In this document: positions 35,047 to 37,358 of the stretch, one piece after another | Layout: each line of letters starts with the position of its first letter | How positions within the stretch are numbered: position 1 is the first letter of the stretch | IMG/VR virus record: IMGVR_UViG_3300047548_000085 | Location: 1 to 56,858 of that record | Reading direction: 5' to 3' (one strand) | DNA from: a virus | Lineage: Duplodnaviria > Caudoviricetes | Length of the DNA stretch: 56,858 nt | Translations under genes and position numbers: made by a program | The notes under the pieces: model-generated | Seen by the model: only the letters and a program-made list of their open reading frames with translations | The model's database searches: none | Told to the model about the DNA's origin: nothing

Positions 35047-35250
35047 TTATAGTGTTCCACGCCCACAAGCGCAAGCGCATTGACATTCACAAACAGTTGT
35101 GTAGTCGTCGTAAAAGATATGATTATGTGATGCTAGTTGTTCTAAAACATCTAACATCTGGCGGTAAGTGTCCGCAGTAATATTGTCTCCGCTATTTTTA
35201 GCAGGAACATCTGAATTAACTGACGTAGTTGATGTGTTTTCTACACCCAT
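35047..35250 (-). CDS. Cys-rich RiPP-precursor-like peptide (67 aa; C-terminal CECQCACACGRGTL)
   Basis: AGGAGA SD; five alternating Cys confined to the C-terminus; immediately upstream of a SPASM radical SAM gene. Confidence 0.85.
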   Translation of the reverse strand: MGVENTSTTSVNSDVPAKNSGDNITADTYRQMLDVLEQLASHNHIFYDDYTTVCECQCACACGRGTL

Positions 35251-35258
35251 GATTTCTC

Positions 35259-36167
35259 CTATTCGATAACATCAACGATGTACTCTCGGAAGAATCGGTT
35301 TTTACTTGCAGTAAAAGCCATGTCCATAGTAGTACCAGTATTCCAACGGATGCTGATGTATCCTCGTTGTTTATTTAGGGTATTGACTATTACCTTATTT
35401 CCGTCCATGGTGTAGTCAAAGTTCGTGTCAACCTTAATCTTGGCGTCTTTGAAGAACTCTGGGAAGTGGTGATTCACAAACCAAGTCTTAAATGGCTCTA
35501 GTGTAAACTCAGTTCCACGAACCATAATGCTATTTTCGCCAATGATTCTAGCGTTTTTGCTAACACGAGGTTTAAAGATGATTTCGTTTAAATTCTTAAG
35601 ATGATTCGCCACTGTGTATACATGGTTCTGCCCATACTTGGCTTCAATGTTTTCAACACACTGAACTGAATGTGGGTTTAGAACGATGTAGTAAAGCGGA
35701 AGGTCTTTGGCTTTGTAACAGAACATCCAAGGAATCATTTTTGGATTTTCAATTTCTTCACCAGATACCAAATCAACAATGGTGTTACCTAACCTGTGAT
35801 ACCAAGAAGTTTTAGAAATAACATCTTTCTGTTCAATTCCACCTGTTGGTAAAATAGCACCCATCATTGCAATGTTATCTGAAGTCTTGTCCATAATTTC
35901 TGCGATTGTGTCAAAATTTAATGGGACTTCAGTTTCTGGGTCGTGTACACTGAATGGACGTTTTAAGATCAAATGATCTTCAGTGTAAACGGCTCCAGTG
36001 ATGGCGAACCTATTATCAACTTTTTGAAAGAATGAAATGTAGTTGGTGTAATCTTTGGCGTTGTTGCTATACCCAAGTCCTGGATTGATACCAACATTAG
36101 CCATGTTTAAAGAATCATCCCATGGATCTGGTTGACCCATAGCAGTTTGTAGTAAGAATACTCTCAT
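35259..36167 (-). CDS. hypothetical protein of the radical SAM cluster (302 aa)
   Basis: Long ORF, ATGA-coupled to the diiron gene; no motif recognised. Confidence 0.75.
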   Translation of the reverse strand: MRVFLLQTAMGQPDPWDDSLNMANVGINPGLGYSNNAKDYTNYISFFQKVDNRFAITGAVYTEDHLILKRPFSVHDPETEVPLNFDTIAEIMDKTSDNIAMMGAILPTGGIEQKDVISKTSWYHRLGNTIVDLVSGEEIENPKMIPWMFCYKAKDLPLYYIVLNPHSVQCVENIEAKYGQNHVYTVANHLKNLNEIIFKPRVSKNARIIGENSIMVRGTEFTLEPFKTWFVNHHFPEFFKDAKIKVDTNFDYTMDGNKVIVNTLNKQRGYISIRWNTGTTMDMAFTASKNRFFREYIVDVIE

Positions 36168-36952
36168 AGTGTTTTTCTATACGCCTTCAAATCATTAACA
36201 GTTTCAAATTCTTTACCAACCAAGTTTGATGCAATTCTTAAGATTGTTGAGTGTAACCTTCTTTGGTCTTTCTCATTAAACTCTAAGATGTCATTTAGGA
36301 AGTGGTCGAATAACTCTGGGTTTGGTAACCTAGAATGTACCGACTTCTTATCTATGTCTAGAGTTGATGACGCTTTAATAGAAATGAAGAAACGCTTAGA
36401 TAAGAACAGTTGAAAAATAGTAAGGATAGCCTTTTCATGTTCTTTCTTGTAATACTTTTTCATAAAAGTCTTAAACGCTGCAGCATGATTGGCTTCGTCA
36501 AGGACTAGATTTTTATAGATGTTCTTGATTAGTGGTTCTTTATGCCAATCAGCCATCTTACGATACCAACGAATAACTGACAATTCAGTACACATATGAA
36601 GAGCCATCATTTCAGCAACTGACATAGGAGAATCGCTGAATGGAATAGCGACTTCTTCAAACTCTCTTATTGTTGCTTCGTTATCGGGAATAAAACGGCT
36701 GCAATATTCTTTTAGGATATATGCGTGTTTATGCTCATCGTGCACCCACTTGATGATGAATGAACGTAAGTCTAAGTCTTCTGGGATTTCGTTAAGCATA
36801 GAGATTGCTGCTGGTAGAGATGCATACTCAATAACGGTATTCATCTTCACAACCTCTGCATTAGTTTGGGATAGTTCAGTTTCCTGATAACTATCCCAAT
36901 TTATTTTAGATGCGTCAAACGATCTATTTTGGTAAATTTTTTGCGAAAACAT
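36164..36952 (-). CDS. ferritin-like diiron-carboxylate enzyme (desaturase/oxygenase-like)
   Basis: E(VIEYA)...DEHKH ... E(CTELS)...DEANH: two E-x~30-ExxH units of a four-helix diiron bundle. Confidence 0.8.
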   Translation of the reverse strand: MFSQKIYQNRSFDASKINWDSYQETELSQTNAEVVKMNTVIEYASLPAAISMLNEIPEDLDLRSFIIKWVHDEHKHAYILKEYCSRFIPDNEATIREFEEVAIPFSDSPMSVAEMMALHMCTELSVIRWYRKMADWHKEPLIKNIYKNLVLDEANHAAAFKTFMKKYYKKEHEKAILTIFQLFLSKRFFISIKASSTLDIDKKSVHSRLPNPELFDHFLNDILEFNEKDQRRLHSTILRIASNLVGKEFETVNDLKAYRKTL

Positions 36953-36971
36953 AATATATCACAATAAACCT

Positions 36972-37358
36972 TTATGATGTTCTATCGTCAACTGTGTGGT
37001 AGTGACTTCTAATTTGATTGATCGCATCTCTCAATTCATTGTGGCGAGATGCAGAAATTGCTGTGTTGGCTGTTGTATTAGTTGGTGCAGAAGTTGCAGC
37101 GTCTGGACCAGAAGTATTTACGTCACGATAGTAGTTGTTTCTATCGCCATTATTACCATATGTAGCCAACTGATAGGCATCGTCATATGTATGATAATGC
37201 CCATTCATATTATTGATAAGAGTAGCAATGCTATTTAAGTCGCTGGCACGTACTGTGTTTCCTGCCTGAATCGCATTTCTAAGTGTTGCTATTTCAGTAG
37301 CGATAGAACCACTACCAGTAAAAACTAATGCCTTTGCGCCACGCTCTGCGGTTGCCAT
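36972..37358 (-). CDS. 128-aa protein with two helix-HxH-DD repeats (putative fibre-tip structural protein)
   Basis: VRASDLNSIATLINNMNGHYHTYDD and ISASRHNELRDAINQIRSHYHTVDD; structural-protein-like composition. Confidence 0.75.
   Translation of the reverse strand: MATAERGAKALVFTGSGSIATEIATLRNAIQAGNTVRASDLNSIATLINNMNGHYHTYDDAYQLATYGNNGDRNNYYRDVNTSGPDAATSAPTNTTANTAISASRHNELRDAINQIRSHYHTVDDRTS

What the first reader, a model, noticed from the sequence alone, without database searches (positions are those of the whole stretch)
35047..37358. The precursor's 'leader' is a third copy of the HxH repeat in the 128-aa protein: a possible 2+1 pseudo-trimeric metal-bound fibre cap
Seen in sequence: three segments align without gaps from a conserved Ala to a His 16 residues later, with hydrophobics at +6, +10 and +13, followed by HxH..DD. 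They are GNTVRASDLNSIATLINNMNGHYHTYDD and NTAISASRHNELRDAINQIRSHYHTVDD (128-aa protein) and GDNITADTYRQMLDVLEQLASHNHIFYDD (peptide). Established knowledge: in trimeric T4 fibres (gp12, gp37 tip) three HxH motifs supply six His to one octahedral metal ion. Inference: two repeats from the 128-aa protein plus one from the peptide could form a three-helix His6-metal unit matching the threefold fibre encoded at 37734-38990. That would display a single modified Cys-rich tail at the tip. The leader would then be a structural docking element that is retained rather than cleaved, which fits the absence of a protease.
Basis: partly seen in the sequence, partly recalled or inferred. Interest (0 to 1): 0.9.

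Follow-up and report, generated by a model that had tools for sequence, protein, structure and literature searches.

The report
Phage peptide completes partner's HxH bundle
In a marine T4-like phage, a small cysteine-rich peptide and a 128-residue protein share a helix-plus-HxH unit (one and two copies) and are predicted to join into one three-helix, six-histidine bundle, which may be a new way of anchoring an enzyme-modified peptide to a partner protein or a phage fibre.

Summary
The 128-aa protein (36972-37358, minus strand) has two copies and the 67-aa peptide (35047-35250) one copy of a gapless unit. The unit is Ala, hydrophobics at +6/+10/+13, HxH at +16, and an invariant Asp four residues after the second His. 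It occurs exactly three times in the six-frame window. It beats shuffles and is kept in distant relatives, including Ralstonia jumbo phage RP12. The two genes sit together in 35 of 42 related viral contigs; the other 7 are cut by contig ends. A predicted 1:1 complex scored 0.78 against 0.02 for the best control. Its contacts form a parallel, in-register three-helix bundle, and all six His lie in the interface. Metal binding, docking onto the 418-aa fibre, retention of the leader and presence in virions were not tested. The pair lies in a late baseplate/fibre gene array, followed by three radical-SAM enzymes and a fourth CxxxCxxC protein. Relatives of the 128-aa protein carry inserted or fused domains, which fits a display scaffold. 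The closest structural analogue is the monomeric gp38 cap of phage S16. No publication describing this was found.

The parts
36972..37358 (-). p128: 128-aa protein with two helix-HxHxxxD units. It has no Pfam family and a weak match to phrog_31780 (unknown function).
   Evidence: AF2 monomer pLDDT 71. The only fold match is RP12 ORF074, TM 0.67.
37179..37247 (-). Repeat 1 of p128 (residues 38-60): helix, H54-x-H56, invariant D60.
36984..37052 (-). Repeat 2 of p128 (residues 103-125): helix, H119-x-H121, invariant D125.
35047..35250 (-). pep67: 67-aa peptide with a variable N-terminus, one helix-HxHxxxD unit and a Cys-rich tail.
35107..35175 (-). Third copy of the unit, in the peptide (residues 26-48): helix, H42-x-H44, invariant D48.
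   Evidence: Interface residues 24-48.
35050..35106 (-). Peptide tail (residues 49-67) with CxCxCxCxC followed by RGT. It is nearly invariant, is not named in the predicted interface, and is the presumed substrate of the radical-SAM enzymes.
   Evidence: The substrate role is inferred from gene adjacency.
36164..36952 (-). Ferritin-like/rubrerythrin-like 262-aa protein. It is an accessory gene, present in only some related loci.
   Evidence: Pfam Rubrerythrin 1.2e-6. Found in 5 of the 27 loci L001-L027 (L002, L009, L017, L021) plus the window.
35259..36167 (-). p302: conserved all-beta protein of unknown function. The C-terminal part looks Ig-like.
   Evidence: No family hit. AF2 pLDDT 79.7, pTM 0.82. 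No PDB match with E<=0.001. Present in most loci. Weak match to RP12 ORF075, P 2.1e-4.
33296..35032 (-). Radical SAM/SPASM enzyme, 578 aa.
   Evidence: Pfam Radical_SAM 3.7e-17 and SPASM 22.4 bits against a cut-off of 21.5. The nearest NCBIfam models, PapB and SCIFF, score far below their cut-offs.
32221..33348 (-). Radical SAM enzyme, 375 aa.
31154..32224 (-). p356: protein of phrog_36229 with a CxxxCxxC motif near residue 40. Possibly a fourth, divergent radical-SAM protein.
   Evidence: No Pfam or NCBIfam hit. Always found with the other enzymes.
29856..31157 (-). Radical SAM enzyme, 433 aa.
37734..38990 (-). 418-aa tail-fibre-like protein upstream of the pair.
   Evidence: PHROG tail-fibre families. 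Its C-terminal domain stands alone after the enzymes in L057/L058, 47% identity.
37360..37749 (-). p129: acidic 129-aa protein between the fibre gene and p128. Present in most T4-like loci but not all. Its N-terminal HxH is not conserved.

Best explanation
p128 and the 67-aa peptide are two chains of one module.

The model:
- The two helix-HxHxxxD units of p128 and the single unit of the peptide pack as a parallel, in-register three-helix bundle.
- The bundle ends in a cluster of six His, backed by three invariant Asp. This is most likely a metal site of the kind found in trimeric phage fibres.
- A fourth helix of p128 (residues 19-31) packs antiparallel against the peptide helix.
- The peptide's 'leader' is therefore a paralogue of its partner's repeats and serves as the docking element.
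- The nearly invariant CxCxCxCxC tail projects free of the interface. It is the likely substrate of the three radical-SAM enzymes and the CxxxCxxC protein encoded downstream, probably for thioether-type cross-links.
- The pair lies in an uninterrupted late baseplate/fibre gene array, and relatives of p128 carry inserted or fused domains. So the module is most likely a virion-associated adaptor or tip, working like the monomeric gp38 cap on a trimeric fibre.

Shown by sequence: the repeat, its conservation and the gene linkage.
Predicted: the hetero-bundle.
Inferred: the metal, the tail chemistry, the structural role and retention of the leader.
For: Repeat:
- It is real and conserved.

Gene linkage:
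- Both genes are present in 35 of 42 IMG/VR contigs. The other 7 are cut near the gene.
- Both are also present in cultured phages RP12/RP31, where the peptide ORF is unannotated.
- In the divergent lineages L024-L027 and L047-L056 the peptide gene directly follows p128.

Complex prediction:
- Median score 0.78 against 0.02 for the best of 3 controls. That mark was reached by 58 of 80 solved complexes and 2 of 110 mismatched pairs.
- The runs agree in at least 80% of contacts, and partner pLDDT was 69-71.
- The calibration counts hold only roughly here, because my own alignments and a riding iron were used.
- Contacts 44-32, 48-36 and 51-39 (repeat 1) and 109-32, 113-36 and 106-29 (repeat 2) match the repeat register.
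- His 54, 56, 119 and 121 of p128 and residues 35-48 of the peptide are in the interface.
- p128 pLDDT was 73-79 with the peptide and 37-42 with unrelated partners.
- No solved homologue exists from which the model could recall the complex.

Architecture:
- The 2+1 partition is constant: 144 of 150 representatives have exactly two HxH and 0 of 150 have three units.
- Relatives have a beta-propeller or a Gly-rich domain inserted between the two repeats. Others have C-terminal Hint or beta-rich extensions.

Context:
- From my reading of the ORF coordinates, the gene array from 28568 to 56256 has no gap above 39 nt.
- Baseplate and fibre genes flank the cassette.

Precedents in print:
- HxH iron sites in T4 gp37 (PMC11705849, passages read).
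- S16 gp38, a monomeric three-helix bundle that caps trimeric gp37 (PMC6851490, section 2.7 passages read).
Against: - No coordinates or metal score were available, so convergence of the six His on one ion is not shown.
- Paralogous repeats could also assemble as homotrimers. A close cousin of a true partner can pass the complex test, and this was not tested.
- Helix 19-31 breaks the threefold symmetry.
- Nothing places either protein in virions. RefSeq calls RP12 ORF074 and ORF075 'hypothetical' while the neighbours ORF072 and ORF073 are 'virion structural protein'. The RP31 virion list is in a figure and a supplement that I could not read.
- The variable tailoring enzymes in relatives look like a natural-product cluster.
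- No p128 or peptide homologue has a solved structure, and p128 has no sequence similarity to gp37, gp12 or gp38.
- Pairwise BLASTP of the two window proteins alone gives E 0.067.
Confidence: 0.5

Rival explanations
1. Biosynthetic scaffold. p128 is a stand-alone leader-binding protein that replaces the usual recognition domain of peptide-modifying radical-SAM enzymes. It holds the precursor by bundle formation while the enzymes modify the tail. The leader is then removed and the modified core is released as a diffusible product or cofactor, not built into the virion.
For: - Precursor-plus-radical-SAM/SPASM layout.
- No recognition (PqqD-type) domain was detected in any of the enzymes at E<=0.1.
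- The tail is free of the predicted interface.
- The variable slot in relatives holds tailoring enzymes: ketoacyl synthase, fatty-acid desaturase, Asp/Asn hydroxylase, aminotransferase, B12 radical-SAM and DUF3050.
Against: - No protease or exporter family was found in the cassette.
- The core is almost invariant rather than diversified.
- The cassette is embedded in late structural genes.
- p128 relatives carry inserted or fused propeller, Gly-rich, beta-rich and Hint domains. This is odd for a chaperone.
- No relative was found in 185,579 prokaryote genomes by the pattern scan, which has limited sensitivity.
Confidence: 0.22
2. Separate homotrimers. As in canonical T4 fibres, p128 trimerises to give two His6 sites and the peptide trimerises to give one. 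The predicted heterodimer is then an artefact of paralogy.
For: - All solved HxH sites cited are in homotrimers (PMC11705849).
- The heptad-like spacing of the hydrophobics fits a coiled coil (my reading).
- The complex test is known to pass close cousins of a true partner (text).
Against: - The number of units is fixed at 2 and 1 in all sequences examined. A homotrimer model does not require this.
- Large domains inserted between repeat 1 and repeat 2 fit a loop joining two packed helices.
- Each chain's confidence depends on the other.
- The helices span only about two heptads.
Confidence: 0.13
3. Shared modification signal. The helix-HxHxxxD unit is a recognition-plus-target element read by the same enzymes in all three places, so p128 is a second substrate rather than a partner.
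For: - The HxHxxxD motif is invariant at three sites next to four radical-SAM-type genes.
- NCBIfam lists weak similarity of the enzymes to His-Xaa-Ser system maturases, far below their cut-offs.
Against: - p128 family members mostly lack Cys, and nothing indicates chemistry on His.
- The strong predicted hetero-interface uses exactly these units.
- The enzymes' nearest models are Cys-thioether maturases.
Confidence: 0.08
4. Chance resemblance between unrelated short helices, with no functional link.
For: Pairwise BLASTP gives E 0.067. The units are short.
Against: Shuffle tests, profile comparisons, conservation in distant phages, strict gene linkage and the complex prediction.
Confidence: 0.02

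Closest known systems
gp38 adhesin of Salmonella phage S16 capping trimeric gp37 (PDB 6F45; PMC6851490, section 2.7 passages read)
   Same: A helical three-helix bundle with pseudo-threefold character adapts a non-trimeric cap to a trimeric fibre. The gene lies just after a fibre gene in a T4-like phage. One p128 relative (P0379) has a Gly-rich domain inserted.
   Different: Here the bundle is split over two polypeptides (2+1) and ends in HxH motifs. There are no conserved apex Trp, no sequence similarity and no polyglycine sandwich in the window's protein. Docking to a fibre was not tested. Radical-SAM enzymes are attached to the system.
HxH metal sites of T4 gp37/gp12 and P2 gpV-type fibres and spikes (PMC11705849, passages read; bioRxiv 10.1101/2023.02.25.529910, search listing only; gp12 is recalled)
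   Same: Three HxH motifs, invariant, at the end of a threefold element of a phage structural module.
   Different: The known sites are in beta-structured homotrimers. Here the motifs follow alpha-helices and come from two different chains. An invariant Asp follows at +4. The metal has not been shown.
Radical SAM/SPASM Cys-thioether peptide maturation (PapB ranthipeptides, SCIFF, CXXX-repeat and Cys-rich peptide systems; NCBIfam models)
   Same: A short Cys-rich precursor is encoded next to radical SAM/SPASM enzymes, and its N-terminal part is not the target.
   Different: All curated cut-offs are missed by a wide margin. There are three to four enzymes for one peptide. No recognition domain, protease or exporter was found. 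The 'leader' is a paralogue of a partner protein. The system is phage-encoded, inside structural genes.
Thioether cross-links installed in proteins by a SPASM radical-SAM enzyme of methanogens (PMC13692751; title and start of abstract in a search listing only)
   Same: A precedent for radical-SAM thioethers in a retained protein rather than a cleaved peptide.
   Different: Archaeal and not viral. No relation to this system was tested.

Membership tests
T4 gp37/gp12-type HxH metal-binding fibre | Conserved HxH motifs | tested here: met
   HxH is invariant in 120 of 120 p128 homologues and 120 of 120 peptide homologues. 144 of 150 representatives have exactly two. RP12 has it in 3 of 3 copies.
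T4 gp37/gp12-type HxH metal-binding fibre | Six His from three symmetry-related motifs around one ion | tested here: inconclusive
   All six His are in the predicted interface. No coordinates are returned and the iron is not scored.
T4 gp37/gp12-type HxH metal-binding fibre | Homotrimeric beta-structured fibre; sequence relation to gp37 or gp12 | tested here: not met
   The profile search of the PDB found no fibre at E<=0.001. The motifs follow alpha-helices. The predicted assembly is a 2+1 heteromer.
gp38 (S16-type) fibre-tip adhesin | Three-helix attachment bundle with pseudo-threefold symmetry | tested here: inconclusive
   A parallel three-helix bundle is predicted, but from two chains and with a fourth helix.
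gp38 (S16-type) fibre-tip adhesin | Sequence homology, apex Trp and polyglycine sandwich | tested here: not met
   No gp38 chain was found with profile A1 at E<=10. There is no conserved Trp in the helices. The window's p128 has no Gly-rich domain.
gp38 (S16-type) fibre-tip adhesin | Binds the tip of a trimeric fibre | not tested
Radical SAM/SPASM thioether RiPP (ranthipeptide, sactipeptide, SCIFF) | Cys-rich precursor next to a radical SAM/SPASM enzyme | tested here: met
   The peptide stop codon lies 14 nt before the 578-aa enzyme gene. SPASM scores 22.4 bits against a cut-off of 21.5. The arrangement is linked in all loci with enough sequence.
Radical SAM/SPASM thioether RiPP (ranthipeptide, sactipeptide, SCIFF) | Enzyme reaches the curated family score | tested here: not met
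   PapB 122.5 bits against 340, SCIFF 85.2 against 425, CXXX-repeat 81.2 against 350.
Radical SAM/SPASM thioether RiPP (ranthipeptide, sactipeptide, SCIFF) | Recognition (PqqD-like) domain and a leader protease | tested here: not met
   Neither was detected by Pfam or NCBIfam in the cassette genes. Sensitivity is limited, and several genes have no assigned function.
Radical SAM/SPASM thioether RiPP (ranthipeptide, sactipeptide, SCIFF) | Thioether cross-links in the product | not testable with these tools
   Needs mass spectrometry.
phrog_31780 (unknown function) | Profile match | tested here: met
   E 8.7e-6, residues 20-125 of p128. The family carries no function.

The most novel reading that the evidence does not exclude
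The peptide is never cleaved. Its leader is the third 'subunit' of a two-chain, pseudo-trimeric His6-metal knob that sits on a phage fibre. Four radical-SAM enzymes turn its CxCxCxCxC tail into a cross-linked tip element used in host recognition or metal handling. That would make it an enzymatically cross-linked, RiPP-like component of a virion. It would also be a new principle of leader recognition: the leader as a paralogue that completes its partner's fold.
Probability: 0.3. Interest if true: 0.92.

Novelty: new variant of a known kind. Interest (0 to 1): 0.78.

Why it matters
If the prediction holds, three things follow.

- It shows a leader peptide that works by completing a partner protein's pseudo-symmetric fold, rather than by binding a recognition domain.
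- It links radical-SAM peptide chemistry to the structural genes of abundant marine T4-like phages and of a soil jumbo phage.
- It extends HxH metal sites, discussed as an iron pool in the ocean (PMC11705849), from homotrimeric fibres to a split heteromeric module.

The question is directly testable. The pair is small, has no solved relatives, and can be co-expressed.

Tried and rejected
Searches that found little or nothing:
- tblastn of p128 against 50,697 phage records: no match.
- blastn of the region: only short fibre or enzyme pieces.
- PDB fold and sequence searches for p128, the peptide and the fibre: nothing at E<=0.001.
- The BFVD fold search matched only RP12 ORF074.
- p302: no family. 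The Atlas gave only weak sheath-like leads at 0.90-0.92. Foldseek gave only weak Ig-like rows.
- Pattern scan of prokaryote genomes for p128: 13 stretches, none confirmed.
- Search for longer or fused forms of the peptide: none. The tool itself says this is weak evidence.
- Atlas look at the C-terminal extension of relative P0391: only a weak PA14/rhamnosidase-N lead, score 0.90 with 158 shared features.

Ideas rejected:
- A fourth HxH in p129 is not conserved in 23 aligned homologues.
- The T4 late-promoter consensus, recalled from memory, has 0 matches in the window. It gives no timing evidence.

Literature:
- Seven searches found no paper describing this cassette, the peptide or p128.
- The RP12/RP31 paper (PMC5468394, passages read) names the radical-SAM genes but not the peptide.
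[quoted passage not shown] That list may bear on whether the p128 or p302 homologues are virion proteins.

Not tried:
- Homotrimer predictions and docking of the pair on the fibre.
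Full report
**Setting.** The window is a single contig with all long ORFs on the minus strand.
- It carries T4-type structural genes. These are the portal (Portal_T4, 6e-179), sheath and large terminase, and gp5-, gp6- and gp8-like baseplate proteins plus a 2159-aa DUF4815 protein.
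- The nearest cultured phages by portal protein are Methylophilales phage Melnitz and Pelagibacter phage Mosig (55.5-56.3% identity), followed by cyanomyophages.
- Gene order in the direction of transcription, with coordinates and evidence in the parts list: DUF4815 protein; an 80-aa virion protein (phrog_473); the 418-aa fibre-like protein; p129; p128; a ferritin-like 262-aa protein; p302; the 67-aa peptide; radical-SAM enzymes of 578 aa (with SPASM) and 375 aa; p356; a 433-aa radical-SAM enzyme; p183; and a 238-aa fibre-like protein.
- From the coordinates, I read no gap longer than 39 nt between 28568 and 56256. The cassette therefore has no room for a promoter of its own and is probably expressed with the baseplate and fibre genes.

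**The observation.** It holds at the stated coordinates; the register, shuffle and profile figures are given under the observation check.
- The only correction is the peptide's DD, which lies one residue later. The residue that never varies is a single Asp four positions after the second His: D60, D125 and peptide D48. The unit is therefore gapless through HxHxxxD.
- The full motif occurs exactly three times in the six-frame translation of the window.

**Conservation.**
- p128 has 245 relatives at E<=0.01 in the 90%-clustered database, and the peptide has 156.
- All 120 listed p128 relatives have two H.H...D. All 120 listed peptides have one HxHxxxDD and a CxCxCxCxC-RGT tail.
- A profile search of 1.84 billion representatives found 242 p128-like proteins at E<=0.001.
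- Of the 150 listed, 144 have exactly two HxH and 135 have two HxHxxxD. Most of the rest have Glu in place of Asp. None has three full units.
- The invariant columns of a diverse alignment are H54, H56, D60, G68, H119, H121 and D125.

**Gene linkage.**
- Scanning IMG/VR with p128 gave 26 contigs. Twenty of them hold the peptide, and the other six end 54-2291 nt after p128.
- Scanning with the peptide gave 32 loci, 16 of them on new contigs. Fifteen of those hold p128 upstream, and in the sixteenth the contig starts 160 nt before the peptide.
- Together, 35 of 42 contigs hold both genes. None has enough flanking sequence to show a lone gene.
- The constant set is p128, the peptide, the three radical-SAM enzymes and p356. 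p302 is present in most loci.
- In the divergent lineages L024-L027 and L047-L056 the peptide gene directly follows p128.
- The cultured Ralstonia jumbo phages RP12 and RP31 carry the same set. ORF074 is the p128 homologue. An unannotated 65-aa ORF is the peptide. ORF076, 077 and 079 are the radical-SAM enzymes and ORF078 is the p356 homologue. All lie next to fibre-like 'virion structural proteins'. ORF075 matches the p302 profile weakly, with P 2.1e-4.
- An independent predicted model of RP12 ORF074 is the only significant fold match of my p128 model (TM 0.67).

**The complex.** p128, the peptide and a riding iron(II) were folded three times.
- Scores were 0.80, 0.78 and 0.72, with a best control of 0.02.
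- The runs agree in at least 80% of contacts, and partner pLDDT was 69-71.
- The mark was reached by 58 of 80 solved complexes and 2 of 110 mismatched pairs. These counts hold only roughly here, because my own alignments and a ligand were used.
- This supports binding; it does not show it.
- Ten lowest-error contacts between repeat 1 and the peptide have residue offsets of 8-16. The repeat alignment predicts 12.
- Seven contacts between repeat 2 and the peptide have offsets of 77-81. The alignment predicts 77.
- Helix 19-31 of p128 adds an antiparallel fourth helix against the peptide.
- His 54, 56, 119 and 121 and peptide residues 35-48 are in the interface. The tail (residues 49-67) is not named there.
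- p128's own confidence was 73-79 with the peptide and 37-42 with unrelated partners. The peptide's confidence fell from 69-71 to 42 without p128. The AF2 monomer of p128 was only moderately confident (best model 71, the others 54-60).
- No solved structure resembles either chain, so recall of a known complex is unlikely.

**What kind of thing p128 is.**
- Among the representatives, P0340 has a beta-propeller and P0379 a Gly-rich domain inserted between the two repeats.
- P0356, P0367 and P0382 have C-terminal Hint domains.
- P0358, P0360, P0378 and P0391 have C-terminal beta-rich extensions without a family. One has a weak PA14-like lead.
- Two such long forms (294 and 452 aa) are followed by the peptide gene in L052/L053 and L055/L056.
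- Insertions between the repeats fit two helices that pack together and are joined by a displayed loop. The fusions fit a scaffold that presents other domains.
- Together with the position in the fibre module, this points to an adaptor or tip. The closest known analogue is S16 gp38, a monomer whose three-helix bundle caps trimeric gp37 (PMC6851490). This is an analogy of function. No sequence relation was found, and the defining Trp and polyglycine features are absent.

**The enzymes and the tail.**
- The 578-aa enzyme is nearest to PapB, SCIFF and CXXX-repeat Cys-thioether maturases, but far below their cut-offs.
- p356 has a CxxxCxxC motif and no family hit.
- I infer thioether-type cross-linking of the tail. 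This is not shown.
- In relatives, the slot between p128 and p302, or the position after the last enzyme, holds a ketoacyl synthase, fatty-acid desaturases, an Asp/Asn beta-hydroxylase, a class-III aminotransferase, a B12 radical-SAM enzyme or DUF3050. The window has the ferritin-like protein there.
- This variable tailoring set is the best argument for the rival reading, in which p128 is a leader-binding scaffold of a natural-product pathway.

**What remains open.** These points are untested: the metal, the docking on the 418-aa fibre, retention of the leader, and presence in virions.
- A homotrimer of each chain was not tested.
- The RP31 virion proteome exists, but its list is in a figure and a supplement that I could not read.

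**Verdict.** The 2+1 bundle is well supported by prediction and by comparative evidence. The fibre-cap role is plausible but inferred. No description of this system was found in seven literature searches.

Noticed in passing
window 31154-32224 (-): p356 (phrog_36229) has a CxxxCxxC motif near residue 40 but no Pfam or NCBIfam hit. It may be a fourth, very divergent radical-SAM protein. RP12 ORF078 has the same motif.
   Followed up: partly
L008 10416-11606; L022 10413-13931; L020 10135-11357; L014 10363-11628; L024 16288-18135; L004 16073-16828: In related phages the slot between p128 and p302, or the position after the last enzyme, holds different enzymes. They are a beta-ketoacyl synthase, fatty-acid desaturases, an Asp/Asn beta-hydroxylase, a class-III aminotransferase, a B12-binding radical-SAM enzyme and DUF3050 (also RP12 ORF080). 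This hints at variable tailoring, possibly lipid-related.
   Followed up: partly
P0356, P0367, P0382 (representatives); L055/L056 6614-7972: Some p128 relatives end in a Hint (intein-like) domain, which could cleave itself off or transfer the p128 part. The 452-aa form is still followed by the peptide gene.
   Followed up: partly
L001 8889-9086 (NC_041911.1 about 82888-83085); L028 (AP017925.1 79633-79821): The peptide gene is unannotated in the cultured phages RP12 and RP31.
   Followed up: yes
L057 11260-11727, L058 10265-10735: The C-terminal domain of the 418-aa fibre (residues 275-384, 47% identity) occurs as a separate 156-aa protein right after the last radical-SAM gene in a distant lineage. 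This suggests the domain belongs with the cassette.
   Followed up: partly
window 29324-29875 (-): p183 has an H-x-D ... H pattern that looks like a small cupin or 2OG-oxygenase, judged by eye. It has no family hit and no homologue in the related loci.
   Followed up: no
window 35230-35250 (-) and homologues: The peptide's otherwise variable N-terminus starts with a conserved M-G/A-x-E-N-x-S. In the predicted complex, residues 2-22 also touch the N-terminal strand of p128.
   Followed up: no
L057 5185-5495 versus L058 4195-4536: The p128 gene is split into two ORFs in L057 but intact in the sister contig L058. This is either a frameshift or an assembly error.
   Followed up: no
whole window: The T4 late-promoter consensus TATAAATA (recalled) has 0 matches on either strand, against 3.1 expected from shuffles.
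   Followed up: no
window 37699-37719 (-): p129 starts with an HxHxxxE string resembling the peptide's motif, but it is not conserved in 23 aligned homologues.
   Followed up: yes
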